Below are positions 9,539 through 22,576 of a DNA stretch of 64,000 bases, in pieces. The notes beneath the pieces are model-generated. The model was not told the DNA's origin, ran no database searches, and saw only the letters and a program-made list of their open reading frames with translations. A program made the translations under genes and the position numbers. Numbering within the stretch: the first letter of the stretch is position 1; the number at the start of each line of letters is the position of its first letter. Source of the stretch: an uncultured Candidatus Saccharibacteria bacterium (GTDB lineage: Bacteria; Patescibacteriota; Minisyncoccia; UBA6257; CAYRSR01); NCBI GenBank assembly GCA_964427275.1, contig CAYRSR010000004.1:2769-66768 (forward strand), written 5' to 3'.

Positions 9539-10519
9539 ATGAAAAAATTAATTTCAATTATAATTCCTGTTTACAACGAGGAGAAGAACATTCCTTTGGT
9601 CTATCAAGAGATATTAAAAATCTGGAGTGAATTAGAAAGTAAATATGATTATGAAATTATTTTTGTTGATGATGGAAGTCAGGATAAAAGTAGCGAAATA
9701 ATAGAAAATTTGGCTGAAGTTGATAAAAAAGTTAAGTATATTCAATTTTCTCGCAATTTTGGCAAAGAAATTGCTACTTCTGCTGGAATCTATTATTCCA
9801 AAGGTGATGCAGCAATTATACTTGATGCTGATTTACAACATCCTGTAGAGTTAATTCCAAAATTTATTGAAAAATGGGAAAATGGAGTTGATATTGTTGT
9901 AGGAATCAGACAGAAGAACAAAAAAGAAGGACTAATTAAAAGAGTTGGTTCATACTGGTTTTATAAGATAATGAACCTTATTGGAGAAACTAAAATTGTT
10001 CCGCGGGCAACTGATTATCGGTTAATTGATAAAAAAGTTATTCAAGAGTTTAATCGTTTTACTGAAAGAAATAGAATCACTCGAGGATTAATTGACTGGC
10101 TGGGATTTAAAAGAGATTACATTTATTTTAAAGCTAACCAGAGAAAGTTTGGTAAAGCTAGTTATAGTTTTTTAAAATTAGTTAAACTAGCTTTGTCTAG
10201 TTTTGTGTCTTTAAGTTTATTTCCCTTGAAATTTGCCGGGTATTTAGGAATCACTATCACTTTCTTTTCTGGTATTTTTGGGGTTTTTATTTTGGTTGAG
10301 AAATATATTTTGGACGACCCTTTAAATTTAAATATTACTGGCACTGCTTCTTTAGCAGTACTGATTTTATTTCTAATTGGCATAGTTTTAAGTAGTCTGG
10401 GTTTGATAACCTTGTATATTGCTAATATTTATAGCGAAGTTCTTAATAGGCCAATTTATGTGATTAAAAAAAAGAAAAATTTTAATTTAAAAGAAGATAA
10501 TAGGAAAACTAAAAATTGA
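9539..10519 (+). CDS. GT2 polyprenyl-phosphate sugar synthase (Dpm1/GtrB/ArnC-like) with C-terminal TM helices
   Basis: IIIPVYNEEKNI...VDDGSQD...DADLQHP GT-A core, two C-terminal TM helices, 326 aa. Confidence 0.75.
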   Translation: MKKLISIIIPVYNEEKNIPLVYQEILKIWSELESKYDYEIIFVDDGSQDKSSEIIENLAEVDKKVKYIQFSRNFGKEIATSAGIYYSKGDAAIILDADLQHPVELIPKFIEKWENGVDIVVGIRQKNKKEGLIKRVGSYWFYKIMNLIGETKIVPRATDYRLIDKKVIQEFNRFTERNRITRGLIDWLGFKRDYIYFKANQRKFGKASYSFLKLVKLALSSFVSLSLFPLKFAGYLGITITFFSGIFGVFILVEKYILDDPLNLNITGTASLAVLILFLIGIVLSSLGLITLYIANIYSEVLNRPIYVIKKKKNFNLKEDNRKTKN

Positions 10520-10571: not shown

Positions 10572-11690
10572 ATGAAAATATTGTGGTTAACCTGGAAGGA
10601 TAGAAAGCATCCACTAGCTGGGGGTGCAGAAATAGTTAATGAAGAATTGGCTAAGAGATTAACTAAAAATGGTTATGAGATTATCTTTATTGTTAGTGGA
10701 TTTCCTGGTGCAGCTAAAAAAGAAATGATTAATGGTTATAAAGTAGTTCGCTTGGGAAATCGGTGGACAGTTTATTGGAGGGCATACCAATATTACAAAA
10801 AACACTTGTCTAATTGGCTAGATTTAGTAATTGATGAAATAAATACAGTTCCTTTCTTTGCAAAGTTTTACGTTAAAACGAAGAATATTTTATTCATTCA
10901 TCAACTTTGTCGGGAGATTTGGTTTTATGAAATGTTCTTTCCATTGAATTTAATTGGGTATTTATTAGAGCCTGTTTATTTATGGCTTCTGCGGGATAGA
11001 AAAGTAATCACTGTTTCCGAGAGCACCAAAAAAGATTTAATAAGGTACGGTTTTAAAAAAGAAAATGTTTATGTTATTTCAGAAGGAATAGAGATTGAGC
11101 CACTAAAAAATTTACCGTCGGTTAAAGAAGTTAAAGAGAAGAATCCAACAATTTTATTTTTAGGTACACTAAGAAGAATGAAAAGACCAGAACAGGTAAT
11201 TAAGGCTTTTGAACTTGTTAAAAAGAAGATAAAAAATTTAAAACTATGGATAGCTGGAGGAGGAAAAGGAAGATATTTTAAAAAGATAATGCGATTGATT
11301 AGAAACTCTAGGTATAAAAAAGATATTGTTTATTTTGGGAAAGTAAATAAAAAAAAGAAATATGAACTATTACTAAAGGCTCATTTACTTTGTGTTACTT
11401 CAGTTAAAGAAGGCTGGGGATTGGTTGTAGCTGAGGCTAATAGCCAAGGAACTCCAGCAATTGTTTACAACGTTGATGGCTTGCGGGATGCAGTGAAAGA
11501 TAATAAAACTGGTATTGTTTGCCAGCAAAATACTCCTGAAAATTTAGCTCAAAACATTATTGAATTATTGAGAAATAAAGAAAAATATGATTTTTTGAGA
11601 AAAAATGCTTGGGAACTATCAAAGGAAATAACTTTTGAAAAGAGCCTAGGACAGTTTAAAAAAATTGTTGAAGAAATAAAAAATGAATAA
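10572..11690 (+). CDS. glycosyltransferase family 4 (GT-B)
   Basis: C-terminal GT1/GT4 domain with an EGWGLVVAEANSQGTPAIV motif. Confidence 0.7.
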   Translation: MKILWLTWKDRKHPLAGGAEIVNEELAKRLTKNGYEIIFIVSGFPGAAKKEMINGYKVVRLGNRWTVYWRAYQYYKKHLSNWLDLVIDEINTVPFFAKFYVKTKNILFIHQLCREIWFYEMFFPLNLIGYLLEPVYLWLLRDRKVITVSESTKKDLIRYGFKKENVYVISEGIEIEPLKNLPSVKEVKEKNPTILFLGTLRRMKRPEQVIKAFELVKKKIKNLKLWIAGGGKGRYFKKIMRLIRNSRYKKDIVYFGKVNKKKKYELLLKAHLLCVTSVKEGWGLVVAEANSQGTPAIVYNVDGLRDAVKDNKTGIVCQQNTPENLAQNIIELLRNKEKYDFLRKNAWELSKEITFEKSLGQFKKIVEEIKNE

Positions 11691-12525
11691 TCAACCATTA
11701 GTTTCAATAGTAATACCAACAAAAAACTCAGGAAGATTTTTAGAAAGGTGTTTAGATTCAATAAAGAAACAGACTTATAGAAACATTGAAATAATAGTTG
11801 TTGATAATAAGAGTGATGATAATACAAGAAAAGTTGCTAGAAGATATACTGATAAAGTTTTTGTAGTAGATGCAGGGGAAAGAAGTGAGCAAATAAATTT
11901 CGGCATTAAAAAAAGTAAAGGGAAGTATGTTTATAGAGTAGACTCAGATTTTATTTTAGATTCTAATGTGGTTAAAGAGGCAGTTGAAAAGTGTGAAAAA
12001 GAAGGATATGATGCAATTTGCATTCATAATACTTCAGATCCTACCGTTAGCTTTTGGGCAAGAGTAAGAAAGTTAGAAAGAGATTGTTACAAGGGTGATG
12101 AGTTAAATGTAGGGGCAAGATTTTTTAGAAAGGATATTGTTAAAGAAATTGGAGGTTTTGATGAAAGGTTAGTAGCGGCGGAAGATTATGATTTTCATAA
12201 CCGGCTTTTAAAAGCAGGTTATAAAATTGGTAGAATTAAAGCGGAAGAAATTCACTTAGGGGAGCCAAAATCTTTGTGGGAAGTTGCTAAGAAACACTAT
12301 TATTATGGAAAGACAATAGTCAGATTCATTGAAAAAAATAGAGGGAGGGGAATAAAGCAACTAAATCCTATAAGACCTGCTTTTATCAGACATTGGAAAG
12401 AATTCGCAAGACATCCACTTTTAACTTTCGGCTTTATAGTTTATCAGTTGGTTAAATATTTTTCAGGAGGACTAGGATATTTAAAAGCAAAATTAGGTTG
12501 TAAGGTTTATAATAAGCCAAAATAG
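11683..12525 (+). CDS. glycosyltransferase family 2
   Basis: VSIVIPTKNSGRFLERCLDSIKKQTY...VVDNKSDD GT-A signature. Confidence 0.7.
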   Translation: MNNQPLVSIVIPTKNSGRFLERCLDSIKKQTYRNIEIIVVDNKSDDNTRKVARRYTDKVFVVDAGERSEQINFGIKKSKGKYVYRVDSDFILDSNVVKEAVEKCEKEGYDAICIHNTSDPTVSFWARVRKLERDCYKGDELNVGARFFRKDIVKEIGGFDERLVAAEDYDFHNRLLKAGYKIGRIKAEEIHLGEPKSLWEVAKKHYYYGKTIVRFIEKNRGRGIKQLNPIRPAFIRHWKEFARHPLLTFGFIVYQLVKYFSGGLGYLKAKLGCKVYNKPK

Positions 12526-12561
12526 GGCTTAGGTATAAATTTTTGAAGATAAATTAAACAA

Positions 12562-13479
12562 ATGACCAACCAACCATTAGTTTCTGTAGTTATTCCTACA
12601 TGTAATAGAGAGAGGAAGCTGACCAGACTGGTGAGTTCAATTTTAAACTCTAACTATCCTAAGAATAGATTAGAAATAATTGTAATTGATGATAATTCTA
12701 CAGATGCAACATATAGGGATATCGAAAAATATCCAAATATTACAATCGTAAGGAATAACAAAAAACTTTTTCCATCAAAGTTAAGAAATATTGGGATAAG
12801 AAAGGCAACCGGAAAGTATATTCTTTTTATTGATGATGACAATGTGGTTGAAAAAGACATGATTTTGAATCTGGTTTGTTTTATGGAAAATCATAAATCT
12901 GTGGGAATAGTAGCACCCTTAATGCTATACTATGGAAGTAATCTTATTTGGTGTGCTGGAATTAAAAGGAATATGCTTACCAGCCTTACCAGTTTTTTGC
13001 TTAATGGCAAGGACTATACAAAAGTAAAGCTACCAAAGATAATAGAGTCTGATGATTTTCCAAATTGTTTTATGACCAGAAGAGATATAATTCTGAAGTA
13101 TGGTATTTATTTTGATGAGATACTTTTTCCTATTCATTACGAAGAATCGGACTTTTGTCGAAAGGTTCATTCAAAAGGTTATAAAATAGTTATGTTCTCT
13201 AACGCTAAGGTTTGGCATGATGTTGGACTACCAGGAAAGCCTCATAATATATTTGATAACCAAAGCCCTCAGCGTTTATTTTACACTGCCCGTAACAGAA
13301 TACTATTTCACAAAAAATATACTCCCTGGTATAAATATATCTTGTTTCTTTTCTTATTTTTACCACTTCTAACTTTCTATTATCTTTATAAAGGTATTGT
13401 ATCTAATACAGAGAATAAAATCTTAAAGATAACTTCGTTCCTTAATGGTGTCTGGAAGGGCATTTTTATGTCAGTATGA
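12562..13479 (+). CDS. glycosyltransferase family 2 with C-terminal TM segment
   Basis: VSVVIPTCNRERKL...VIDDNSTD...DDDN, with a hydrophobic C-terminus. Confidence 0.7.
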   Translation: MTNQPLVSVVIPTCNRERKLTRLVSSILNSNYPKNRLEIIVIDDNSTDATYRDIEKYPNITIVRNNKKLFPSKLRNIGIRKATGKYILFIDDDNVVEKDMILNLVCFMENHKSVGIVAPLMLYYGSNLIWCAGIKRNMLTSLTSFLLNGKDYTKVKLPKIIESDDFPNCFMTRRDIILKYGIYFDEILFPIHYEESDFCRKVHSKGYKIVMFSNAKVWHDVGLPGKPHNIFDNQSPQRLFYTARNRILFHKKYTPWYKYILFLFLFLPLLTFYYLYKGIVSNTENKILKITSFLNGVWKGIFMSV

Positions 13480-14615
13480 AGATAGCTATAGTTTCAAAGT
13501 ATGCTCCTGCTGATACTGGCGGTTTAGAATCTGTGGTAAATGGAATAATAAGTGTTATTAGAAGGTCAGGTTTTAATTTTGATATAACTGTCTTTTATCA
13601 GAGAAAAAGAAGAGGTGATAAATTTACTTCTGAAGAATATAAGTCCAAAGAGGTAATGGTGCCGGACATACCAGTTGTTTCGGAGGTTATTTATAATTTT
13701 ATCTGTGGAATAAAATGTGCTTCGGGGAACTACGATATTGTACATACTCATGGTGTTACAGGTGCTGGATATGCTCTTATAAGAAGATTTATTAGAGATA
13801 AAGCCAAATTTATTCATACTTTCCATGGAATTTCTTACAAGTCTTTAGAGTGCTATGTTAAAAGATTTGGATTTCCAGGAAATGTATTGGTTCAAATCTA
13901 TAGAACTATCATGTCTTACCTTGAAAAATTAGCCGGAAGGAAATGTGATGTTGCTGTTGCGGTATCTGAGGGAGTTAAAAGGGACCTGGTAAAGTATTAT
14001 GGAATACCTGAAAGTAAAATAACTGTTATACATAATGCTGTTGATACAGAAGTTTTTTACCCGATGTCGAAAGATAAAGCCAAAGAGCTATTGAAGCTGG
14101 ATAAGAGCAAAAAGTATATTCTTTTTGTGGGTAAAGAAGCTTTTAGAAAAGGGATGGACATAGCTATTAATGCTATGAGGTATTTAAAATTTGACAATAT
14201 TGTGCTATTAATAGTAGGTCCAGCTAAGATTGACTTTAAAGAAGATAACATTATAAGCTTAGGAGAGCTTTCAAGAAAGAAAATGGTTTTTGTTTATAAT
14301 ACTGCAGAGGTTTTAATATTACCTTCAAGATACGAAGGGCATCCTATTACAGCCCTGGAGGCACTATCTTGCGGTCTTCCGTTGATTGTATCTAGAGAGT
14401 CAAATGTAGAGATTATTAATAAGAATCAAGGAATTGTAATTAATGAAAATAAGCCAGAATTATTTGCTACTGAAATAAAAAAGCTTTTGAAAAGTGAAGA
14501 ATTAAAAGAAATGTCAAACTCGTGTCGAAAGCTAGCAGAAAAATATTCGGTTAATAATCAATACAAGAAATACTTAGAATTATATTTGAGTTTTTATGAA
14601 TCAAGAAACTATTAG
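13476..14615 (+). CDS. glycosyltransferase family 4 (GT-B)
   Basis: The EGHPITALEALSCGLPLIVS motif is characteristic of GT4 retaining glycosyltransferases. Confidence 0.75.
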   Translation: MKIAIVSKYAPADTGGLESVVNGIISVIRRSGFNFDITVFYQRKRRGDKFTSEEYKSKEVMVPDIPVVSEVIYNFICGIKCASGNYDIVHTHGVTGAGYALIRRFIRDKAKFIHTFHGISYKSLECYVKRFGFPGNVLVQIYRTIMSYLEKLAGRKCDVAVAVSEGVKRDLVKYYGIPESKITVIHNAVDTEVFYPMSKDKAKELLKLDKSKKYILFVGKEAFRKGMDIAINAMRYLKFDNIVLLIVGPAKIDFKEDNIISLGELSRKKMVFVYNTAEVLILPSRYEGHPITALEALSCGLPLIVSRESNVEIINKNQGIVINENKPELFATEIKKLLKSEELKEMSNSCRKLAEKYSVNNQYKKYLELYLSFYESRNY

Positions 14616-15321
14616 CTCCTGGTACAATAATTTTTATACCCGCAAAGAAGTAAATAAGAAATTGTCCCCATGGAGGCGTACAACATTTCAGCTTATCTGT
14701 GAACTAGGCTTGAAAGGTAAAATACTGGATGTTGGTTGTGGTGATGGAGGGTTGCTATTTGAACTAATTAAATCTTCAATGTTTGGTAAGGAAGATATTT
14801 ATGGTATTGATATATCTAAATCTGCGATTAATATTTCACGAGCCCGATTGGGAATACCAGAGGAGCATCTTAAAACTTATGATATTGAATCTAGTGAATT
14901 ACCGTTTCGGCAGGAATTTTTTGATATAGTGGTAATGAATGATGTTATAGAACATCTTCAACATCCTTTTAAGAGCTTACCTAAGACACTAAAAATGCTT
15001 AAAGTAAAAGGCCACTTAGTTATTTCTTTCCCTAATTATACAAATTTACCTTGGCTTGCACTTAGAATATTGGCAGAGAAATTAAAAAGACCGGGGTGGA
15101 TAGTCCTTCAACCTGTTGACCATATATTTTTTTATAGAGGACTTAAGGATTTACTAGTTAAAAGGTTTGGTTTAAAGTTTATTACTAGCAGGGGCAGTGT
15201 CTTTTTCCCGCCGCTATTATATAAATTTGAACCTCGGATTTTCAGTTTAGTTTTGAATAAACTTGGATTAGCTTTTCTTTCATTTCACCCTGTTTTAGTT
15301 TTTAAGAAAAATGAGAAATAA
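14596..15321 (+). CDS. class I SAM-dependent methyltransferase
   Basis: ILDVGCGDGGLLFEL motif I and a VVMNDVIEHL motif. Confidence 0.75.
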   Translation: MNQETISSWYNNFYTRKEVNKKLSPWRRTTFQLICELGLKGKILDVGCGDGGLLFELIKSSMFGKEDIYGIDISKSAINISRARLGIPEEHLKTYDIESSELPFRQEFFDIVVMNDVIEHLQHPFKSLPKTLKMLKVKGHLVISFPNYTNLPWLALRILAEKLKRPGWIVLQPVDHIFFYRGLKDLLVKRFGLKFITSRGSVFFPPLLYKFEPRIFSLVLNKLGLAFLSFHPVLVFKKNEK

Positions 15322-16903
15322 TACTATTATCGTAATTTCTGGTTCTTCAGGTTCGGGTAAGACAACTATATCCAGAAAACTATACTTTACCTTGTCTACT
15401 TGCGGCTTGGATGCTGTATATAGAGAGTGGGAAAATAATCCTGATGATTATTTCTTACTTAAAATACCGCTGAAGTTATTAATAAAGTTTTTTCCTAGAA
15501 TACATAAATCCAATCTGGAGCGTTTGGTTCAGGGACCTAAAAACAATAAGTTTCCATTAAGGTTTAAGATATGGCCATTTTTTATCTGGTTAGATCGATT
15601 GGCCGAGATATTTTACTTGAGATTTTTTAAGCCGCATAATGTAACAGTAATTCATAGATACATTCATGGAGTATTGATTGCTCTCCTTGGATATTATGGA
15701 TGGGGAAAAAATGAACTCATAGACAAGCTTTATTTTCCAAAACCAGATATTTTCATTATGTTGGATACTACACCAGAAGAGGTTATGAAGCGTGGCGCAG
15801 ATTATCCGACCCTTAAAGATGCTGAATATTGGAGAAAAAATTTCCTAAATATTGCAGATAAAAATGGTTATCCAATAGTTGACTCTTCGTATGATGTAGA
15901 AACTACATTTAGAAATTGCTTAAGAGTAATTGTTTCAAGAATGATGAAAAATCAGGAAGATATGGTTCTGCACCTACTTAGTGATCCATATAACTACTAC
16001 GATAGGGAATTATTAGAGAGAATAGATTTTAGAAAGCTGGATTATAATTATTTGTACTCCTATGTATTAGAACTTGGAATTGGCTTTCAGGCACTTGGCT
16101 CATTGCTTGAGTATGATATACCAGAAATATGGAGGAATAAGTTCAGTAATAAATTACTTGAACTTGAAAATTATTCCAGAAAAGTATCGAGTGCAATCAA
16201 AGAAATTCACAATCTTTTTAAGCAAAACAATATTAAATATGTAATGTTTAAGACCAATAGGCCATATAAGCATGTTTCTAGGGATATTGATATTTTGGTA
16301 GATGATTATAAGAAGGCATTTTCTGTACTTAAAAAAGATGGATGGGTTACAGACCTGGAGCAAATTCTACTTAGTGAAGTTCATTTAAAAAAAGGCAATA
16401 TAGTATTGGACTTGCATGATAAAATAGAAAGGTTACCTAAGAAACTTCTTCTTGAAAATGTTATTAAAAATAAAGAAGAAATTAATATTCCAAAGCCAGA
16501 ATTAGAGGTACTATCAATATTACTTGAATGTATAGAGGATTTGCAAATGGATTTAGAAGATATTCACTATATCAGGGGATTGGTTAAAGAGAATGATATA
16601 AACTGGAAGGAAGTATACAATCTTTCCAAAGTTTTAGGTGTTTATAAAAAAATAAATCAACTTCTTTCAATTGTTAGACTTAAAGACATTTTTTATTATT
16701 CTGGAAAATTAAGTAGAAAATTACCCGAGATTAAAGACTCTGGAATTGACTTTCAAAAGAGTTTAATATCTTTAGTTTATCAATTTAGATTAGCAAAAGT
16801 TAAAAAGAGATTATTATTTTTAAAATTAGCAATTAGACGCTTAATAAGCAGTCCTTTTAAGACAATTAGGGCGGGCTTTAAGAGATATATTTTTAGAAGG
16901 TAA
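15311..16903 (+). CDS. P-loop kinase domain fused to NTP_transf_5-like nucleotidyltransferase domain protein
   Basis: N-terminus IIVISGSSGSGKTTISRKL (Walker A; dNK/thymidylate-kinase-like). C-terminal half carries the YKHVSRDIDILVDDY nucleotidyltransferase signature. Confidence 0.45.
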   Translation: MRNNTIIVISGSSGSGKTTISRKLYFTLSTCGLDAVYREWENNPDDYFLLKIPLKLLIKFFPRIHKSNLERLVQGPKNNKFPLRFKIWPFFIWLDRLAEIFYLRFFKPHNVTVIHRYIHGVLIALLGYYGWGKNELIDKLYFPKPDIFIMLDTTPEEVMKRGADYPTLKDAEYWRKNFLNIADKNGYPIVDSSYDVETTFRNCLRVIVSRMMKNQEDMVLHLLSDPYNYYDRELLERIDFRKLDYNYLYSYVLELGIGFQALGSLLEYDIPEIWRNKFSNKLLELENYSRKVSSAIKEIHNLFKQNNIKYVMFKTNRPYKHVSRDIDILVDDYKKAFSVLKKDGWVTDLEQILLSEVHLKKGNIVLDLHDKIERLPKKLLLENVIKNKEEINIPKPELEVLSILLECIEDLQMDLEDIHYIRGLVKENDINWKEVYNLSKVLGVYKKINQLLSIVRLKDIFYYSGKLSRKLPEIKDSGIDFQKSLISLVYQFRLAKVKKRLLFLKLAIRRLISSPFKTIRAGFKRYIFRR

Positions 16904-16925: not shown

Positions 16926-19900
16926 ATGATACCAATACTATCAAAATTACTGAATTGGATTAATTCTAAAGACAGGCGAGATTATTTTTTAGCTGGGATA
17001 ATTATATTAGCTCTTGTTTTTTTAGAATACCGGCTACTTATCTTTGAAAGTATTAACTACATAGGAAAAGGATATTTTAAATTCTCAAAAATCCCGTTTA
17101 CTTTAAAAGAATCATTTCAGTTTTTGCCCTTAATTTTAATAGATTGGGCTTCGCTTCCAGGAGGATGTGCTGTAACATTGCTAGCCGGACTTTATCATCT
17201 TTTGGGAGGATTAGCTATCTTTGCATTTATAAGAATCTACTTAAAAGACCTTTTTAAGGAAAATAATCTCTTTTTACCTGCTTTTCTTGGAACTTTATTG
17301 TTTATGTTTTATCCCTGGAACACCACAGGTGATAACTTTCCCACGTTGGTTATGGTTAGATTTTTATTTCCATTGGCCCTTCTTTGTGCATTTAAGGGTA
17401 TAAAACATAATTCTACCTGTGCATTACTGCTTTCCGGAATAATAATTTCACTTGCAACTTTAGCTGACCCACGTGCTATTGTGTTTTTTATTCCAATTAT
17501 TTTTTTTGTAATTTTACTGCCACATTTATTGATAAGGGAAACAGGAAATCTCAAGTTATACCTTTTTCGATTTATAGGTCTTTTAGTTATTTCTACAATT
17601 TTTTCTTCTCTTGAGATTGCATATAGAGTTTTAAAATCATTCTCAGCTGGAAAAGCAAGTATTCCTACAACAGTGGCATCTGCATTTAATCCAGATTCAT
17701 TTATTCCAAATTTTAAATATGCAGATTTAATATCAACTTTTCAGGGTATTTCTTTCCTTGCAACAGGAGAACAATTTTTAAAAATTCTAAAAGAAATTCC
17801 GTTTCTTTATAACTTGTTTTTAATAGCTCCATTATTAGCAGTTGCTGTTATTTTTATGATTCTTCTCAAATATCATCGAACTCAGAAGTTGAGGGCTCAT
17901 ATTTTATCATTGGTTCTTTTTATATTAATAGTTATTGGACTATTTTCTAGATTGGTTCCGAATAAGTTGCCACTATTTCCAAGAATAGCTTGTAGTTTTG
18001 TAGGGTCTAAAATACCAGGTATCATAACTTCTCTATTTTTATTGTTCCGAACCGAAAGATTTTTGAATCTTTCAATGATGATTTTTTTGGGATTATCAGC
18101 TGGAATAAGCATAAAACTATTGCGGAATAGTCGAAATTCTTTCTTTAAAATACTTTTTGTTAGCGGTGTTTTAGTTTCTGTGGTAGTTGTGTGGGGTATT
18201 CCAGTTATCATGGATGGACACGGACTGGTTAATAGAGGAGGAATAATTTTTGAGATTGACGAAGAATCTTTAGCGTTGTCAAAGGTAATTAGTGATATAA
18301 AACCATACTCAGTGATAGATAAATCAATTCCTTTACAAAAAGGATCTGGCGGATTACCAAATGCACATTTCTTATCTAATGTTGAAGCTGGTGTAAAGCA
18401 ATTTCTGGTAAGGTATAGCACAGAAACATCTAAAGGATTTAGAAGTCCAATTCTAATTGATAAGGATTATGATTTTTTGGCGCACTTGTTAAATCAGATG
18501 GGAGTTAAATACTTAATTTTGAATGGATATAGGGCTGAGCCAAATGACCCAGCAATGTTTAAAAAAGAACTTAACCAATCTCCCTATTTTAGATTTAGAA
18601 GTAAGTCAGGTAGTGTATATGGCTATGAAATCCAGAAAGAAATAAAACCCAAAATTGCTGATGGCCTGTTTGTTCTAGGCGGGCTGGAGGATTATCGAAA
18701 AGCATATCCGTTTTTTGAAAAACAAAACTTAGATGTTGCCCCAATATTTCTTGATGCTCCAGTAGATTTTACTGTTTTAAAAAGATTTCACTTTCCATTG
18801 CTAGTAAGTACTCATAAAACCAAAACTGACTTAATAGCAAGCTTTTGTATTTCACATAAAGACGCAGAAATACTAACTCCTGCAAAGTGGAAAACTGGAA
18901 CTTGGAATAGATTTGTTCGCTGGTCTCCGGGGTACATTATGGATACAATAAGCGGAATGTGGTCTCACATACTGCCAGACCTTATAAACTATGAATGGAG
19001 TTACACCTATAGACCGGACTATGGCAATGTCTTTGTAATAAATGCTGAAAGTTCAATTTCAACCGAAGTAAATTTAAATCCCGGTAAATATAGAGTTTTG
19101 ATACGTGTCTTAATGAATCCTAGAGGAGGTGTTATAAATTTAAAATTAGGAGGTTTCTCTAAGGATATTGTTACAAAATGGGATTATGATAGCAGTGAGT
19201 TTATCTGGAAAGACCTTGGAGTATATGATTTTACTGGTTCTAAACTTAAGGTCATTCTGAGAAGTTTTGAAGGGGTAAATGCAGTTAATTTAATAGTTGC
19301 TATTCCACAAAAGGATTGGGAAGAAATAACAAAGAAGGTAAAACAATTTATAAAGGAGCGTGAAATTATATATATTGTGGATCCAGAGCGACAGAGAACT
19401 AATCCTACAGATGGTTCTGTTGCAACAGAAATGAAATTACTAAAATCAGGTAGTTATAAAGCTTCATCCCTTTCTAATGTAAAGTTTGAAATAATTCAGG
19501 ATTCAATACTACAGTCAAATAACCAAATTACATACTTTCAGGGTAAATATATAACCATTTCTTTTCCTAAATATAGAGATATATTGTTTTCTTCTTTTTT
19601 TGAAAAAGAAGAAGGTTTGTGGACTGATCTAGATTCTAGATTTTCAGTCTCCTATGTTAATGATGGATATGTAGGCAAATCAATTCTTGTTTCAACTACC
19701 ACTCAACAACCTGGTAGCTGGAGCTGGATTAAGGGACCATTAATTGAGGTTAAACCTAATCATAAATATCAGTTTAAATCTGCTATGAAGTGGGAAAATG
19801 TTGTTCAATCTCACATATCTATTGATGGTATTAAAAAAGATGGTTCAGTTGTTAGATTGGGTCTTTTGCCTTCAGGAAAAGATGGTGAATCAGATTGGGT

Positions 19901-20450
19901 TGAGTATTCAACCATTAAAGAAATTCCTTCGGATATAGTAAAGGTTAGGTTTGTGCTTAATGCTGGCTGGGCTGAAAAAAGTGATAAGCCGGCTAAAACA
20001 TGGTTTGATAACATATTGATAAAAAGACTGAAGACCTCAAAAAAAGGTAATCAGGCCATATTGCTTCATACTTCTGAATTAGGTCAAATTTATAATAACT
20101 CAGATTTCAAAATAGTTTCCTATAAGATTAATGAATACAACAAGACTCATAAAGGATATGATATCAGTTTGAAAGGAAGTGGTGAAAAAGTCTTGTCAAT
20201 TCCAGAAATTTATGATGGCATGTGGAAATTAGAAAATTCAACATTTCAATCTATAGCTGTTCCTGTGTATTATATCCTTAATGGTTTTGCGATAAACTCC
20301 TTTGACAATCAAATTCATCATTTTACTCTTTATAACACTAAAGAAAGATTGGATAGAATATTAGAAAGTTTTTACTTTACTAGTTTAATTTTCATATTGT
20401 TTGGAATGATTGTTTTTTATTGGATTAAAAGAAGTCAATTTTTTAAATGA
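16926..20450 (+). CDS. large polytopic membrane protein with ~700-aa extracytoplasmic domain and C-terminal TM anchor (putative GT-C-type glycosyltransferase/polymerase)
   Basis: 1174 aa. ~12 TM helices within residues 1–430, a long soluble region with a CBM-like C-terminal module (GSWSWIKGP...VRFVLNAGWA...WFDNI), and a final TM helix. Confidence 0.4.
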   Translation: MIPILSKLLNWINSKDRRDYFLAGIIILALVFLEYRLLIFESINYIGKGYFKFSKIPFTLKESFQFLPLILIDWASLPGGCAVTLLAGLYHLLGGLAIFAFIRIYLKDLFKENNLFLPAFLGTLLFMFYPWNTTGDNFPTLVMVRFLFPLALLCAFKGIKHNSTCALLLSGIIISLATLADPRAIVFFIPIIFFVILLPHLLIRETGNLKLYLFRFIGLLVISTIFSSLEIAYRVLKSFSAGKASIPTTVASAFNPDSFIPNFKYADLISTFQGISFLATGEQFLKILKEIPFLYNLFLIAPLLAVAVIFMILLKYHRTQKLRAHILSLVLFILIVIGLFSRLVPNKLPLFPRIACSFVGSKIPGIITSLFLLFRTERFLNLSMMIFLGLSAGISIKLLRNSRNSFFKILFVSGVLVSVVVVWGIPVIMDGHGLVNRGGIIFEIDEESLALSKVISDIKPYSVIDKSIPLQKGSGGLPNAHFLSNVEAGVKQFLVRYSTETSKGFRSPILIDKDYDFLAHLLNQMGVKYLILNGYRAEPNDPAMFKKELNQSPYFRFRSKSGSVYGYEIQKEIKPKIADGLFVLGGLEDYRKAYPFFEKQNLDVAPIFLDAPVDFTVLKRFHFPLLVSTHKTKTDLIASFCISHKDAEILTPAKWKTGTWNRFVRWSPGYIMDTISGMWSHILPDLINYEWSYTYRPDYGNVFVINAESSISTEVNLNPGKYRVLIRVLMNPRGGVINLKLGGFSKDIVTKWDYDSSEFIWKDLGVYDFTGSKLKVILRSFEGVNAVNLIVAIPQKDWEEITKKVKQFIKEREIIYIVDPERQRTNPTDGSVATEMKLLKSGSYKASSLSNVKFEIIQDSILQSNNQITYFQGKYITISFPKYRDILFSSFFEKEEGLWTDLDSRFSVSYVNDGYVGKSILVSTTTQQPGSWSWIKGPLIEVKPNHKYQFKSAMKWENVVQSHISIDGIKKDGSVVRLGLLPSGKDGESDWVEYSTIKEIPSDIVKVRFVLNAGWAEKSDKPAKTWFDNILIKRLKTSKKGNQAILLHTSELGQIYNNSDFKIVSYKINEYNKTHKGYDISLKGSGEKVLSIPEIYDGMWKLENSTFQSIAVPVYYILNGFAINSFDNQIHHFTLYNTKERLDRILESFYFTSLIFILFGMIVFYWIKRSQFFK

Positions 20451-20454
20451 TTCT

Positions 20455-20865
20455 ATGAGAGAGATAAAATTAACTATCAGGATACCAGAATTACTCGAAA
20501 TAAAGAAGTTTATAAAACTTCAAGTTATCAAGATTTTTAAAAGAACCAAAGAAGACATAATTAACAAGAAGGTATATACAGTTTTATTGATAGTCATTTT
20601 TGGCTTATTGTTTTGGAAATTTGCTTTTAAAGTAGCTATTTTATGGACAATCTTTTGGCTTTTTTTGTTCTATAACTGGGAAGATAGGGTTTTAGCTGGA
20701 ATTGCTTTGGTTCTTTTAGTTGGTTGCCCGATATTTTTGATTACTGGAAGAAAAGTTATTGCTGAACAAATAGCAATTTATGCTTATTACTTTATAGTGA
20801 TGACTGTAGCTTTGCAGATTGCAAAATTATGTGGCTTAGACAGAAGAATAAGATTGCATATTTAG
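20455..20865 (+). CDS. small membrane protein (3–4 TM)
   Basis: Hydrophobic 136-aa product between two large membrane proteins. The ORF-track start (20410) overlaps the upstream gene, so the start is taken at the ATG at 20455. Confidence 0.4.
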   Translation: MREIKLTIRIPELLEIKKFIKLQVIKIFKRTKEDIINKKVYTVLLIVIFGLLFWKFAFKVAILWTIFWLFLFYNWEDRVLAGIALVLLVGCPIFLITGRKVIAEQIAIYAYYFIVMTVALQIAKLCGLDRRIRLHI

Positions 20866-22487
20866 TTTATACTTTTTTAGCAATTTCTATTTTATTACCC
20901 CTGTTGAAACCAGGATATATTTTCGCTATGGATATGGTTTTTACTCCTCGTTTAAGATGGCCATCAGAATTTAATTTTCCCGGTGCTGTTTTATATTTGT
21001 TAAACTTTATTTTACCCAGTCAGATTATTCAAAAAATTCTTTTGTTTTTAGTCTTGTTTTTGGGTGGTGTCGGGATGCACAAATTAGTTCCAGTAAGGAA
21101 TGAGTTTGCTAAATACTTTGCCGGCATTTTTTATATTTTTAATCCATGGATTTATTCCAGGTTTTTGTATGGGCATTTATACTTATTAATTGCTTATGCT
21201 CTGATGCCATTTGTAGTTAAAACAATTTTTAAATTTTTGGACCAGATAAATTTCAAAATTGCCCTGAAGTTAAGTTTATGGCTGATTTTAATTGGTTTTA
21301 TCAGTCATCATTTTATTTTTATGGCAGTTTTATTTTTTGTGATTTCTGTTCTGGTTTATATTTTAAAGAACTTAAAAGATTTGCCTAAAATTTTAGAAAT
21401 TTTAAAATTTACAACTTTAATTGGATTAATTTTTTTAATTTTATCAAGCTGGTGGATTGCTCCTTATTTCAATAAAAGTTCTCCTCAAGGGCAATTTATT
21501 CAGCGGTCCATTGGTTTAAGTGACCTAAAGGCTTTTCAAACTGAACCGGATGCAAAGTATGGGGTATTACTAAATGTTTTGGCAATGTATGGCTTTTGGG
21601 GGGATAGGACCGAACAATATGTGGTTCAGAAGGATGTAGTTCGAGGCTGGTTTTGGTTATTTTTGATTATCCTAGGGCTGGTAATATTTGGCGCAATAAG
21701 TAAGTTAAAGGAATATAAGGCAATTGTTTTAATTCTAATTGGAATTATTTCCTTTGTTTTATCAGTTGGATTTGCTTATCCACCATTTAGGTTATTGATA
21801 AATTTTTTAAATCAGAATCTTTTTATTTTTAAGGGTTTTAGGGAGTCCCAGAAGTTCAGTGCTTTGTTAGTTTTAGTTTATGCTTATTTTGGAGCTTTGG
21901 GAATTAACAGCATAGTTGAAGGTTTAAAAGTTAGAAAGTTAGAAGGTTTAAAAGTTAGAAAGTTAGAAAGTTTAAAAATGTTTTTGTTAGCTTTTTTGAT
22001 TATTTTGCCAATTCTTTATTCTCCAATGATGTTTTGGGGCTTTAGAGGACAGCTTTCTGTTTCTGATTATCCATCAGATTGGTTTAGGGCAAATGAAATT
22101 TTAAATCAAGACCAAGATAATTTTAAGGTTTTGTTTTTCCCCTGGCATCAATATATGTTATTTAGTTTCACTAATGGTAAAGTAATTGCCAATCCGGCAC
22201 CAAATTTTTTTGATAAACCGGTTATTGCTGGTGATAATATGGAATTAGCAGAAATTTACACTCAGAGTAGAAGACCTATATCTAAATTTATTGAAAATGA
22301 AATTCTGGCTAAAAGAGAAATCATTAATAATTTAGGTCAGATACTTAAACCTCTGAGTATCAAGTATGTTATATTAGTTAAACAAGAAGATTGGCAAACC
22401 TATGGTTTTTTGGATTGGCAAACTGATTTAAAACAAATTTATGATTCTAAGCATTTAAAAATTTATCAAAATCAAAGCTGGAGATAA
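20829..22487 (+). CDS. polytopic membrane protein, GT-C-like glycosyltransferase candidate
   Basis: 552 aa with >10 TM helices and an in-frame tandem repeat EGLKVRKLEGLKVRKLESLK. Lies at the downstream end of the glycan cluster. Confidence 0.4.
   Translation: MWLRQKNKIAYLVYTFLAISILLPLLKPGYIFAMDMVFTPRLRWPSEFNFPGAVLYLLNFILPSQIIQKILLFLVLFLGGVGMHKLVPVRNEFAKYFAGIFYIFNPWIYSRFLYGHLYLLIAYALMPFVVKTIFKFLDQINFKIALKLSLWLILIGFISHHFIFMAVLFFVISVLVYILKNLKDLPKILEILKFTTLIGLIFLILSSWWIAPYFNKSSPQGQFIQRSIGLSDLKAFQTEPDAKYGVLLNVLAMYGFWGDRTEQYVVQKDVVRGWFWLFLIILGLVIFGAISKLKEYKAIVLILIGIISFVLSVGFAYPPFRLLINFLNQNLFIFKGFRESQKFSALLVLVYAYFGALGINSIVEGLKVRKLEGLKVRKLESLKMFLLAFLIILPILYSPMMFWGFRGQLSVSDYPSDWFRANEILNQDQDNFKVLFFPWHQYMLFSFTNGKVIANPAPNFFDKPVIAGDNMELAEIYTQSRRPISKFIENEILAKREIINNLGQILKPLSIKYVILVKQEDWQTYGFLDWQTDLKQIYDSKHLKIYQNQSWR
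21918..21977 (+). repeat. 24-bp tandem repeat (x2.5) inside CDS
   Basis: gaaggtttaaaagttagaaagtta repeated perfectly, then a partial copy. Confidence 0.8.
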
Positions 22488-22538: not shown

Positions 22539-22576
22539 AGGAGTAAACAAGGTCGAATACATTGGCAAGCAAATTT

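What the first reader, a model, noticed from the sequence alone, without database searches (positions are those of the whole stretch)
16926..20450. 1174-aa membrane protein with huge extracytoplasmic domain and carbohydrate-binding-like module
About 12 N-terminal TM helices are followed by ~700 aa of soluble sequence, and the protein ends with a single C-terminal TM anchor. Near the C-terminus a beta-rich segment (SWSWIKGPLIEVKPNHKYQFKSAMKWENV...VRFVLNAGWAEKSDKPAKTWFDNILI) resembles CBM4/9-type carbohydrate-binding modules. This is an unusual architecture and a candidate glycan polymerase or transferase with substrate-binding module.
Basis: partly seen in the sequence, partly recalled or inferred. 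Interest (0 to 1): 0.55.

Follow-up and report, generated by a model that had tools for sequence, protein, structure and literature searches.

The report
AftD-like membrane glycosyltransferase with sugar-binding modules
This gene encodes a large membrane enzyme of a well-known type (a GT-C glycosyltransferase built like mycobacterial AftD) that most likely adds sugars to a cell-surface polysaccharide outside the membrane; it is a real but fairly ordinary gene that no database has annotated.

Summary
The ORF at 16926-20450 (+, 1174 aa) is real and the described layout holds, with corrections. It has 11 N-terminal TM helices rather than about 12, then 707 extracytoplasmic residues, then one C-terminal TM helix. 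A confident AlphaFold model (pLDDT 89.5, pTM 0.88) has mycobacterial arabinofuranosyltransferase AftD (6W98) as its best PDB match (E 3.5e-13). For residues 1-660 modelled alone, the top 20 PDB matches are all GT-C enzymes. A sequence profile of the family hits AftD directly (E 1.3e-6). It also aligns to the family of the 552-aa GT-C gene just downstream (hhalign probability 99.8%). The outer part contains an alpha/beta domain and four beta-sandwich modules. One of these, aa 894-1036, is CBM4/9-like. The gene lies in a same-strand glycan operon with a Wzx-like flippase, a membrane-anchored GT2 resembling polyprenyl-phosphate-sugar synthases, two GT4, two further GT2 and a methyltransferase. 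Bacterial and archaeal relatives share this context. The most likely function is an extracytoplasmic, lipid-phosphate-sugar-dependent glycosyltransferase whose CBM array holds a polymeric glycan acceptor. The architecture is not unusual, because it is the AftD/Emb/GT136 plan. What is new is an unannotated family shared by Patescibacteria and archaea. Catalytic residues, donor and acceptor remain unproven.

The parts
16926..20450 (+). Whole ORF, 1174 aa: AftD-like GT-C glycosyltransferase
   Evidence: ORF list and translation. 399 relatives in the exhaustive search. AF2 pLDDT 89.5. Best PDB match is AftD 6W98, E 3.5e-13.
16926..18215 (+). GT-C membrane core, aa 1-430. TM1 15-45; juxtamembrane helices about 60-75; TM2 79-110; TM3 116-134, kinked at P130; TM4 139-160; TM5 164-180; TM6 183-202; TM7 209-240; outer loop EL4 241-299; TM8 300-315; TM9 320-340; outer loop EL5 341-377 with FRTERF at 374-379; TM10 378-400; TM11 405-430
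   Evidence: Secondary structure of the AF2 models. Hydropathy. The top 20 Foldseek PDB matches of the aa 1-660 model are all GT-C. Weak PMT_2 match over aa 84-224, 23.5 bits against a cutoff of 26.1. Conserved residues R36, P130, G135, D136, P149, D181, R183, F374, R375, T376, R378.
18216..18905 (+). Extracytoplasmic alpha/beta domain, aa 431-660, the soluble half of the GT-C super-domain
   Evidence: Mixed helix/strand pattern in the AF2 models. Up to aa 571 it aligns with the C-terminal soluble part of the downstream 552-aa GT-C family (hhalign), and up to profile position 515 with the AftD soluble domain. Invariant G585, G586, D635 and near-invariant D610.
18906..19310 (+). Beta-sandwich module 1, aa about 661-795, Golvesin_C-like / CBM-like
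   Evidence: Strands at 701-794 in the model. Relatives match Pfam Golvesin_C at the equivalent positions; P0011 scores 34.4 bits, above the 31.6 cutoff. Invariant D673, Y722, R727, F759, G783.
19311..19604 (+). Helix 795-810 plus beta module 2, aa 796-893
   Evidence: AF2 secondary structure. This is the least confident part of the ectodomain, with pLDDT 71-80 over about aa 851-900. No Pfam match.
19605..20033 (+).
   Evidence: Pfam CBM_4_9 on this segment: E 0.0044, 17.8 bits, below the 25.9 cutoff. Nine of 23 relatives match CBM_4_9, best E 2.1e-11. The family profile hits the CBM4 of laminarinase 16A (1GUI), E 0.0022, at profile positions 894-1036. Foldseek matches CBM22, CBM4 and CBM16 with TMt 0.6-0.72. 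Conserved WSW, SHI, LNAGW and TWFD motifs.
20034..20336 (+). Beta-sandwich module 4, aa 1037-1137, membrane-proximal
   Evidence: Strands at 1045-1137, pLDDT mostly above 85. Conserved E1094, Y1096, P1113, G1120. It corresponds in order to the structural beta-sandwich that precedes TM12 in AftD.
20337..20450 (+). C-terminal TM anchor, aa 1138-1174, with a short basic cytoplasmic tail (KRSQFFK) and the stop codon
   Evidence: Hydropathy peak at 1149-1168. Helix 1138-1173 in the model. The tail is rich in K/R.
9539..10519 (+). GT2 with two C-terminal TM helices; candidate polyprenyl-phosphate-sugar synthase (GtrB/ArnC/PgfS-like) that would make the lipid-linked donor
   Evidence: Pfam Glycos_transf_2, E 4.9e-35. 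NCBIfam PgfS E 1.3e-68 and ArnC E 4.6e-44, both below their equivalog cutoffs. Two C-terminal hydrophobic helices.
7679..8974 (+). Wzx-type polysaccharide flippase at the head of the cluster
   Evidence: Pfam Polysacc_synt E 1.9e-15 and Polysacc_synt_3 E 5e-12.
10572..16903 (+). Cytoplasmic glycan-building genes of the same operon: GT4 (10572-11690), GT2 (11683-12525), GT2 (12562-13479), GT4 (13476-14615), methyltransferase (14596-15321), P-loop kinase plus NTP_transf_5 protein (15311-16903)
   Evidence: Pfam and NCBIfam matches. The genes are tightly packed or overlapping on one strand. The order is collinear in metagenome locus L005, and several genes have best matches next to the archaeal homologue in L001.
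20455..20865 (+). Small membrane ORF (136 aa from the ATG) directly after the target; possible conserved partner
   Evidence: Translation. No Pfam family. 34% identity over 53 aa (pairwise E 3.7e-7) to the small ORF that directly follows the distant homologue P0002 in L008.
20829..22487 (+). Second GT-C, 552 aa: a 'core-only' remote paralogue of the target (MmpA/AftD-N-terminal-like)
   Evidence: Pfam GT-C_AftD E 1e-7. NCBIfam MmpA E 2.2e-47, 161.9 bits against a cutoff of 210. hhalign of the two families: probability 99.8%, E 1.1e-28, target aa 22-571 against 9-550. Relatives are named Parcubacteria/Patescibacteria.

Best explanation
The protein is a GT-C-fold integral-membrane glycosyltransferase built on the AftD plan. 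Eleven TM helices and an outer alpha/beta domain form the catalytic super-domain at the outer face of the cytoplasmic membrane. Four beta-sandwich modules extend outward from it; one is CBM4/9-like and one is Golvesin_C-like. A final TM helix ties the C-terminus back into the membrane. Proposed mechanism, inferred rather than shown: the cytoplasmic GT2 and GT4 enzymes and the methyltransferase of the operon build a lipid-linked glycan, and the Wzx-type flippase exports it. The membrane-anchored GT2 at 9539-10519 makes a polyprenyl-phosphate monosaccharide. The GT-C then transfers that sugar, outside the membrane, onto the polymeric surface glycan. The CBM array holds the long acceptor chain, as in AftD, EmbC and GT136. 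Shown here: the fold, the homology to AftD, the CBM-type modules, the topology signal and the conserved glycan-operon context. Inferred: catalytic activity, the donor, the acceptor, and the roles of R375/R378 (phosphate binding) and E34/D73/D136/D181 (catalysis or metal binding).
For: Fold. The full-length AF2 model (pLDDT 89.5, pTM 0.88) matches AftD 6W98 best (E 3.5e-13, about 1445 aligned columns), followed by EmbA/EmbB (about 1e-4). The top 20 PDB matches of the aa 1-660 model are exclusively GT-C enzymes, and the next matches are MFS transporters at probability below 0.35.

Sequence. A 38-sequence family profile hits AftD at E 1.3e-6 over about 400 residues, and aligns the family FRTxRF motif with AftD LIRLPL and the family LRGxSF motif with AftD LRGTDSW. 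hhalign to the family of the neighbouring Pfam-GT-C_AftD-positive gene gives probability 99.8%.

GT-C hallmarks listed for AftD are all present in the model: two juxtamembrane helices between TM1 and TM2, TM3 broken at the near-invariant P130, a long TM7 followed by a 59-residue loop with short helices, and an alpha/beta outer domain.

CBM.

Topology. K/R bias of 21/106 inside against 1/29 outside. The conserved acidic and basic residues D136, D181, R183, R375 and R378 fall on the outer turns.

Context. The gene sits in a same-strand operon with a flippase, a GtrB/ArnC/PgfS-like GT2 with two C-terminal TM helices, GT2/GT4 genes and a methyltransferase. Locus L005 is collinear. Distant relatives (24-32% identity) in L001, L007 and L008 also sit among GT2, GT4 and methyltransferase genes.

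Precedent. CBMs of AftD, EmbC and GT136 ORF12 bind the acceptor polysaccharide.
Against: No acidic residue in the first outer loop is conserved across the whole family. E34 and D/E73 are kept only in the closer clade, so the canonical GT-C catalytic base cannot be pinned down. The residue that aligns with the essential AftD E251 (D257) is not conserved.

The target itself passes no curated Pfam or NCBIfam threshold.

A GtrB-like synthase was seen only in the window and in L001, and not in the limited flanks of L005, L007 or L008. No GtrA- or MATE-type flippase for the monosaccharide donor was identified.

A core-only AftD relative, MmpA, has no known catalytic role, so a GT-C fold does not guarantee enzyme activity.
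Confidence: 0.6

Rival explanations
1. The protein is an en-bloc transferase, acting as an oligosaccharyltransferase, ligase or polymerase. It would take the completed polyprenyl-diphosphate-linked glycan flipped by the Wzx-like protein and either transfer it to a protein, peptidoglycan or lipid acceptor, or polymerise repeat units. This would fill the role of the Wzy or ligase enzyme that is missing from the cluster.
For: A Wzx-type flippase is present, but no Wzy, WaaL, LCP or initiating phosphoglycosyltransferase was detected among the scanned genes of the window. STT3, AglB and PglB, which are en-bloc GT-C transferases, are among the best matches of the core. GtrB-like synthases are not consistently present next to relatives.
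Against: The protein contains no WW dipeptide, so the WWDxG motif of STT3/PglB/AglB is absent. The best overall match and the only sequence-level PDB match is AftD, a monosaccharide transferase. No Wzy-, WaaL- or SEDS-like fold is among the matches. In the characterised CBM-bearing GT-Cs, the CBM binds the acceptor polymer.
Confidence: 0.17
2. The protein is a protein O-glycosyltransferase of the PMT/Pgf type. It would use the polyprenyl-phosphate sugar made by the PgfS-like GT2 to glycosylate secreted or cell-wall proteins, for example the FN3/PG-binding or DUF5667 proteins encoded downstream.
For: The only Pfam signal on the target is PMT_2 (E 7e-5 on the core). The best NCBIfam match of the synthase is PgfS of the streptococcal protein-glycosylation system. 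Two membrane GT-C-like genes plus a synthase resemble the reported pgfS-pgfM1-pgfM2 arrangement, which is from my own knowledge and was not tested here. Secreted-protein genes follow the cluster.
Against: The PMT_2 score is below the cutoff and covers only the generic TM3-TM7 region. Four cytoplasmic GT2/GT4 genes and a Wzx flippase indicate a polysaccharide rather than single-sugar decoration. An array of CBM-like modules fits a glycan acceptor better than a protein one. No MIR domains are present.
Confidence: 0.1
3. The protein is a non-catalytic scaffold or glycan-handling factor. It would be a GT-C-derived membrane platform whose CBM array tethers or guides the nascent surface glycan (MmpA-like or partner role), while the downstream 552-aa GT-C, which has an invariant Asp in its first outer loop, carries out the chemistry.
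For: There is no family-wide conserved acidic residue in EL1 of the target family, whereas the downstream family has an invariant D35 there. MmpA, a core-only AftD relative, has no recognised catalytic function. The Emb proteins act as hetero-oligomers (entries 7BVF and 7BVC).
Against: Residues on the outer-face turns are strongly conserved: D136, D181, R183 and the FRTxRF motif. R375 is shared with the invariant R338 of the paralogue family and aligns with an Arg in AftD. Relatives in L001, L004, L005 and L007 occur without the short paralogue, so the large protein does not depend on it.
Confidence: 0.08
4. The protein is a membrane-anchored glycan-degrading or remodelling enzyme. The conserved Asp residues of the outer domain (D610, D635, D673) would form a hydrolase or lyase site, and the TM block would serve only as an anchor.
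For: Invariant acidic residues lie in the soluble part. Several Foldseek matches of the beta-sandwich region come from glycoside hydrolases: GH101 and the CBMs of GH10 xylanases.
Against: Those matches are to the CBM or beta-sandwich accessory parts and not to catalytic domains. No glycoside-hydrolase Pfam family matches any segment, even at E<=10. An 11-helix conserved GT-C core is far more than an anchor requires. In AftD, acidic residues of the soluble GT-C domain (D474/E475) line the transferase site.
Confidence: 0.03

Closest known systems
AftD, arabinofuranosyltransferase D of mycobacteria (PDB 6W98; Pfam GT-C_AftD PF11847)
   Same: AftD is the best structural match (E 3.5e-13) and the only sequence-level PDB match (E 1.3e-6). 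The order of parts is the same: an 11-TM GT-C core, an outer alpha/beta domain, several CBM-type beta-sandwiches, a structural beta-sandwich, and a TM helix returning to the membrane. The EL4 (LRGxS-aromatic) and EL5 (Arg) motifs are shared.
   Different: Identity is about 10%. The target does not reach Pfam PF11847. It has one C-terminal TM helix instead of TM12 plus the TM13-16 bundle that binds acyl carrier protein. The AftD candidate catalytic residues (E251, D474/E475) are not conserved at the aligned positions. The host is a Patescibacteria bacterium, and no decaprenyl-phospho-arabinose genes were seen in the window.
EmbA/EmbB/EmbC arabinosyltransferases (PDB 7BVF, 7BVC)
   Same: A GT-C core with C-terminal CBM-type domains that bind the acceptor arabinan. 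They match at E about 1e-4 for the full model and 0.009-0.03 for the core.
   Different: The match is weaker than for AftD, the TM count and domain order differ, and the Emb proteins work as dimers with AcpM.
GT136 (Citrobacter youngae ORF12) and Gtr-type three-component glycan-modification systems
   Same: The logic is the same: a polyprenyl-phosphate-sugar synthase plus a GT-C with 11 TM helices and a C-terminal CBM that binds the polysaccharide acceptor, acting after export. The window has a synthase-like GT2 and two GT-C genes in one operon.
   Different: No MATE or GtrA flippase was identified. The target carries about 700 outer residues with four beta-sandwich modules rather than one CBM, and ends with a TM helix. 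No sequence relationship to GT136 was tested.
MmpA (Rv0226c / NCgl2761)
   Same: In mycobacteria, MmpA is a core-only relative of the AftD N-terminal 668 residues and is encoded near aftD. The window shows the same pairing: the large AftD-like target and, directly downstream, a 552-aa core-only paralogue with an NCBIfam MmpA match of 2.2e-47.
   Different: The MmpA match belongs to the neighbour and not to the target, and is below the NCBIfam cutoff (161.9 bits against 210). Patescibacteria have no mycolate or trehalose-lipid pathway (own knowledge).
CBM4/CBM9/CBM22 carbohydrate-binding modules (Pfam CBM_4_9, PF02018)
   Same: Residues 894-1036 form a beta-jelly-roll that superposes on CBM22, CBM4 and CBM16 (TMt 0.6-0.72). 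It aligns with the CBM4 of laminarinase 16A and ends in the typical W-F-D-x-[IV] strand.
   Different: The target segment scores below the Pfam cutoff (17.8 bits against 25.9). The ligand is unknown. The module is embedded in a membrane enzyme rather than a glycoside hydrolase.

Membership tests
GT-C fold glycosyltransferases (structural superfamily) | Polytopic membrane core whose helix arrangement superposes on solved GT-C enzymes | tested here: met
   The top 20 Foldseek PDB matches of the aa 1-660 model are all GT-C enzymes (STT3, AftA, DPY19, AglB, ArnT, Emb, PglB), at probability 0.98-1.00 and E 1.5e-4 to 1.6e-2. The full model matches AftD at E 3.5e-13. TM-scores are modest (0.29-0.40).
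GT-C fold glycosyltransferases (structural superfamily) | Two juxtamembrane helices in the first outer loop; proline-kinked TM3; long TM7 followed by a long loop with a short helix; a soluble outer domain after the core (list taken from the AftD paper) | tested here: met
   AF2 secondary structure shows helices at 60-65 and 66-75 between TM1 and TM2, TM3 split at 127/130 with P130 near-invariant, TM7 at 209-240, a loop at 241-299 with helix 278-290, and an alpha/beta domain at 431-660. This was tested on a predicted model and not on an experimental structure.
GT-C fold glycosyltransferases (structural superfamily) | Conserved catalytic Asp/Glu at the end of TM1 or in the first outer loop | tested here: inconclusive
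   E34 and D/E73 are conserved only in the closer clade. More distant members carry other acidic motifs (L[DE]N[FY]) in the loop. R36 is widely conserved.
GT-C fold glycosyltransferases (structural superfamily) | Uses a polyprenyl-phosphate-linked sugar donor at the outer face of the membrane | not testable with these tools
   Only context is available. A GtrB/ArnC/PgfS-like GT2 with two C-terminal TM helices lies in the same operon, and a comparable membrane-anchored GT2 lies near the archaeal homologue in L001.
AftD family (Pfam GT-C_AftD, PF11847) | Match to PF11847 at or above its gathering score | tested here: not met
   There is no PF11847 match for the whole protein or for aa 1-430, even at E<=10.
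AftD family (Pfam GT-C_AftD, PF11847) | Detectable sequence homology to the AftD GT-C super-domain | tested here: met
   The family profile A4 hits 6W98_A at E 1.3e-6, profile positions 115-515 against AftD 127-544. hhalign gives probability 99.8% to the family of the neighbouring gene, whose members carry PF11847.
AftD family (Pfam GT-C_AftD, PF11847) | Domain order: 11-TM core, soluble GT-C domain, CBM modules, beta-sandwich, then a TM helix returning to the membrane | tested here: met
   The AF2 model layout was compared with the published AftD description. The full-length alignment to 6W98 spans about 1445 columns.
AftD family (Pfam GT-C_AftD, PF11847) | C-terminal TM13-16 bundle that binds acyl carrier protein | tested here: not met
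   Only one C-terminal hydrophobic helix is present (1138-1173), followed by 1-6 residues.
AftD family (Pfam GT-C_AftD, PF11847) | Transfers arabinofuranose from decaprenyl-phospho-arabinose to arabinan | not testable with these tools
   No gene resembling the DPA pathway was noticed among the Pfam-scanned genes of the window. The donor is unknown.
CBM4/9 (Pfam CBM_4_9, PF02018) | Match to PF02018 at or above its gathering score | tested here: not met
   The target segment aa 890-1040 scores E 0.0044 and 17.8 bits against a cutoff of 25.9. Nine of 23 relatives match at E<=0.01, the best at 2.1e-11.
CBM4/9 (Pfam CBM_4_9, PF02018) | Beta-jelly-roll fold superposable on solved CBM4, CBM9 or CBM22 modules | tested here: met
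   Foldseek matches: 1H6Y and 1DYO (CBM22, TMt 0.63-0.65), 3P6B, 4BJ0 and 2Y64 (CBM4, TMt 0.54-0.60), 2ZEX (CBM16, TMt 0.72). The family profile hits the CBM4 1GUI at E 0.0022.
CBM4/9 (Pfam CBM_4_9, PF02018) | Binds a carbohydrate | not testable with these tools
   Conserved Trp residues (W932, W991, W1026) are suggestive only.
Oligosaccharyltransferases STT3/PglB/AglB | WWDxG motif in the outer domain | tested here: not met
   No WW dipeptide occurs anywhere in the 1174 residues.
PMT/ArnT-type GT-C (Pfam PMT_2, PF13231) | Match at or above the gathering score (26.1 bits) | tested here: not met
   20.9 bits for the whole protein and 23.5 bits for aa 1-430.
Gtr/GT136-type three-component glycan modification system | Polyprenyl-phosphate-sugar synthase, a dedicated small or MATE flippase, and a GT-C, all encoded together | tested here: inconclusive
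   A synthase-like GT2 is present and two GT-C genes are present. No GtrA or MATE family was detected. The only candidates are a Wzx-type protein and an unassigned small membrane ORF.
Glycan polymerases and ligases (Wzy, WaaL, SEDS) | Fold similarity of the TM core to these families | tested here: not met
   None appears among the PDB matches of the core. After the GT-C enzymes come MFS transporters at probability below 0.35.

The most novel reading that the evidence does not exclude
The family would be a previously unrecognised glycosyltransferase family, with no curated Pfam or NCBIfam model, whose operon module (GT4, GT2, GT4, methyltransferase, large GT-C) has moved between archaea (Methanomassiliicoccaceae, Thermococcus) and Patescibacteria. 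In these wall-poor, episymbiotic bacteria it would act as the missing polymerase or ligase that assembles or attaches the main surface glycopolymer. Its CBM array would read a modified (for example methylated) chain end, rather than merely adding side-chain sugars.
Probability: 0.15. Interest if true: 0.6.

Novelty: new member of a known kind. Interest (0 to 1): 0.38.

Why it matters
Patescibacteria (CPR) are ultrasmall and mostly episymbiotic, and their surface glycans are essentially uncharacterised. This analysis gives a specific, testable annotation for a 1174-aa 'hypothetical protein' and its operon: an AftD-like extracytoplasmic glycosyltransferase with acceptor-binding modules, paired with a core-only paralogue in the same way that AftD and MmpA are paired in mycobacteria. 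It also shows that the AftD body plan, best known from the mycobacterial cell wall, exists in a divergent family of about 400 sequence clusters. That family is shared by archaea and CPR bacteria and is missed by the curated domain libraries. This is useful for annotation and for choosing targets to study CPR and archaeal cell-surface biogenesis, but it does not change what is known about how GT-C enzymes work.

Tried and rejected
- Single-sequence phmmer against the PDB found nothing. Only family profiles reached 1GUI and AftD.
- The word-indexed protein search found only 3 relatives. The exhaustive search was needed.
- The search for related loci with the 23-sequence alignment failed because the alignment is too diverse. 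With 5 close sequences it returned only 2 genome loci and 3 metagenome loci, so the taxonomic distribution is under-sampled.
- Direct BLASTP of the target against the downstream GT-C was not significant (E 0.93 for the collinear segment). Only the profile-profile comparison showed the relationship.
- The second 1163-aa ORF in archaeal locus L001 is not detectably similar to the target.
- Mapping of AftD catalytic residues was attempted. E251 aligns with the non-conserved D257, and D474/E475 fall in a low-confidence loop, so no catalytic assignment was made.
- OST identity was rejected because there is no WWDxG motif. A polymerase or ligase fold was rejected. A hydrolase reading was rejected because no GH family matched.
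- The small downstream ORF was tested for GtrA-like identity and gave no family match.
- Literature searches for this family in CPR or archaea, and for DUF3367/PF11847, found nothing relevant.

Full report
**1. Observation**

An ORF of 1174 codons runs from the ATG at 16926 to the stop at 20450 on the + strand.

The window has about 32% G+C. It is bacterial: it has a class-II tRNA-Tyr and the genes nusG, L11, lepA, gatB, secY, adk, map, trmD and S2. It also encodes a DUF5667 protein. Close relatives of the neighbouring gene are named Parcubacteria or Patescibacteria, so the host is a Patescibacteria (CPR) bacterium. The identical protein is recorded on an ENA metagenome contig (ERZ27248139).

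Hydropathy shows a hydrophobic block over aa 20-430 and one further hydrophobic segment at about 1149-1168. The gene is clearly real. An exhaustive HMMER search of 1.84 billion representatives finds 399 relatives at E<=1e-3, including full-length proteins of 1100-1250 aa at 35-40% identity.

**2. Structure**

An AlphaFold2 model built on a 74-sequence alignment is confident, with mean pLDDT 89.5 and pTM 0.88. It shows, in order:
- 11 TM helices (aa 15-430);
- an alpha/beta domain (431-660);
- a beta-sandwich (about 661-795);
- a helix plus a second beta module (796-893);
- a beta-jelly-roll (894-1036);
- a fourth beta-sandwich (1037-1137);
- a terminal TM helix (1138-1173).

The count is therefore 11 TM helices, not about 12. 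Two hydrophobic stretches in the first outer loop are juxtamembrane helices.

K/R residues are concentrated in the predicted cytoplasmic turns (21 of 106 residues) rather than in the short outer turns (1 of 29). This places the N-terminus inside the cell and the 707-residue domain outside.

**3. What the membrane core is**

Foldseek against the PDB ranks the three entries for mycobacterial AftD first (6W98, E 3.5e-13, about 1445 aligned columns), with EmbA/EmbB further down (about 1e-4).

The core was modelled separately (aa 1-660; pLDDT 84.5, pTM 0.87) so that the beta-sandwiches could not drive the result. Its 20 best PDB matches are all GT-C glycosyltransferases: STT3, AftA, DPY19, AglB, ArnT, EmbA/B and PglB. 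After these come MFS transporters at low probability. TM-scores are modest (0.29-0.40), so the superposition is not rigid-body.

The relationship is also visible in sequence. A 38-sequence family profile hits AftD at E 1.3e-6 over about 400 residues. A profile-profile comparison with the family of the 552-aa gene immediately downstream gives probability 99.8% and E 1.1e-28 over 507 columns. That downstream gene matches Pfam GT-C_AftD at 1e-7 and NCBIfam MmpA at 2e-47.

The five GT-C hallmarks listed in the AftD structure paper are all visible in the model:
- two juxtamembrane helices after TM1;
- TM3 broken at a proline, which is the near-invariant P130;
- an extended TM7;
- a long loop after TM7 containing a short helix;
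- an alpha/beta outer domain.

The target itself reaches no curated threshold. Its only match is PMT_2, at 20.9-23.5 bits against a cutoff of 26.1, and it has no NCBIfam match.

**4. What the outer modules are**

Residues 894-1036 are CBM4/9-like.
- The segment scores E 0.0044 against Pfam CBM_4_9, which is below the cutoff.
- Nine of 23 relatives match CBM_4_9, the best at 2.1e-11.
- The family profile aligns with the CBM4 of Thermotoga laminarinase 16A (1GUI, E 0.0022).
- Foldseek gives target-normalised TM-scores of 0.54-0.72 to CBM22, CBM4 and CBM16 modules.

The module at about 661-795 corresponds to Pfam Golvesin_C in relatives, one of which scores above the cutoff.

Matches to the tandem CBM22 pair, to Cry protoxin beta-rolls and to tandem malectin-like ectodomains fit an array of several carbohydrate-binding-type sandwiches.

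AftD likewise has three CBMs and a structural beta-sandwich, followed by TM12. The target therefore has the AftD body plan, minus the TM13-16 bundle that binds acyl carrier protein.

**5. Context**

The genes from 7679 to about 25853 are all on the + strand and are tightly packed or overlapping. In order they are:
- a Wzx-type flippase;
- a GT2 with two C-terminal TM helices whose best NCBIfam matches are PgfS and ArnC, which are polyprenyl-phosphate glycosyltransferases;
- GT4, GT2, GT2, GT4, a methyltransferase, and a P-loop kinase/NTP_transf_5 protein;
- the target;
- a small membrane ORF;
- the core-only GT-C paralogue;
- an FN3/PG-binding protein and a DUF5667/Kazal protein.

Metagenome locus L005 is collinear with the window from the first GT4 to the target. 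In the archaeal locus L001 (Methanomassiliicoccaceae, 32% identity), orthologous GT4, GT2 and GT4 genes flank the homologue. More distant relatives (24-28% identity) also sit among GT2, GT4, methyltransferase and sugar-nucleotide genes. One relative is a 'predicted membrane protein' of Thermococcus chitonophagus. The association with glycan-assembly operons is therefore conserved across both domains of life.

**6. Mechanism**

The best-supported reading is an extracytoplasmic GT-C glycosyltransferase. It would transfer a sugar from a polyprenyl-phosphate donor, plausibly the product of the GT2 at 9539-10519, onto an exported surface polysaccharide. The CBM array would hold the long acceptor chain, as shown experimentally for AftD, EmbC and GT136 ORF12.

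Candidate functional residues are the conserved outer-face residues D136, D181 and R183, and the FRTxRF motif (R375, R378). R375 aligns with the invariant R338 of the paralogue family and with an Arg in AftD EL5.

These functional assignments are inferences. The canonical catalytic acid of the first outer loop is not conserved family-wide. AftD E251 aligns with the non-conserved D257. No dedicated flippase for a monosaccharide donor was found.

The rival readings are:
- an en-bloc transferase, ligase or polymerase, since there is no Wzy in the window, although WWDxG is absent and no polymerase fold matched;
- a PMT/Pgf-type protein O-glycosyltransferase;
- a non-catalytic scaffold analogous to MmpA;
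- a hydrolase, which has no support.

**7. Comparison and novelty**

The protein works like AftD, Emb and GT136. It is a remote homologue of AftD but not a member of the curated AftD family: PF11847 is not matched, TM13-16 are absent, and the host and pathway are different.

The pairing of a large AftD-like protein with a core-only paralogue mirrors AftD and MmpA in mycobacteria.

The description 'unusual architecture' is not. The new elements are an unannotated, divergent family shared by archaea and CPR bacteria, and a concrete annotation for a CPR surface-glycan operon. I classify it as a new member of a known kind, of moderate interest.

Noticed in passing
window 20455-20865 (+); L008 10651-11193: A small membrane protein (136 aa, 3-4 hydrophobic segments, no Pfam family) is encoded directly after the target. 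A similar small ORF (34% identity over 53 aa, pairwise E 3.7e-7) directly follows the distant homologue P0002 in L008. It may be a conserved partner, such as a flippase or stabiliser.
   Followed up: partly
window 20829-22487 (+): A 552-aa 'core-only' GT-C (Pfam GT-C_AftD 1e-7; NCBIfam MmpA 2e-47, below its cutoff) is a remote paralogue of the target's first 570 residues (hhalign probability 99.8%). It has an invariant Asp35 in its first outer loop. Its family is widespread in Parcubacteria/Patescibacteria. The pairing mirrors AftD/MmpA in mycobacteria.
   Followed up: partly
window 15311-16903 (+); L004 11-1054; L005 8335-9975: A 530-aa protein with an N-terminal P-loop kinase-like region and an 'uncharacterised nucleotidyltransferase' domain (NTP_transf_5) sits immediately upstream of the large GT-C in the window. 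It is also there in both close metagenome relatives (33-39% identity), next to a methyltransferase in the window and in L005. This could be a glycan-modifying or chain-capping pair, but its function is unknown.
   Followed up: partly
L001 and L002 (Methanomassiliicoccaceae MAGs); P0023 (Thermococcus chitonophagus): The only matches in the species-representative genome collection are archaeal (32-34% identity), and their flanking GT4, GT2 and GT4 genes are best matches of the window's genes. This suggests that the whole module is shared, or was transferred, between archaea and Patescibacteria. The pattern-based search has limited sensitivity, so the distribution is under-sampled.
   Followed up: partly
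L001 1713-5204 (+): A second 1163-aa ORF lies in the same archaeal glycan cluster. It has no Pfam match and no significant BLASTP similarity to the target. It could be another large membrane glycan enzyme.
   Followed up: partly
window 31088-31822 (+) and 29883-31085 (+): The peptide-chain release factor ORF is only 244 aa, and its PCRF match starts at profile position 101. It therefore appears to lack the N-terminal third. It is preceded, 2 nt away and in another frame, by a 400-aa ORF with no Pfam match. This could be a frameshift, a programmed or assembly artefact, or an unusual split gene.
   Followed up: no
window 23499-25853 (+) and 22562-23380 (+): Directly after the glycan genes come a 784-aa DUF5667 protein with a Kazal-type protease-inhibitor domain and a 272-aa FN3 plus peptidoglycan-binding protein. 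These are likely surface or secreted proteins and possible glycosylation targets.
   Followed up: no
L008 12019-14868 (+): A 949-aa YfhO-family protein, which is another GT-C-type membrane glycosyltransferase family, is encoded about 1.4 kb downstream of the distant homologue P0002. Several GT-C enzymes co-occur in these clusters.
   Followed up: no
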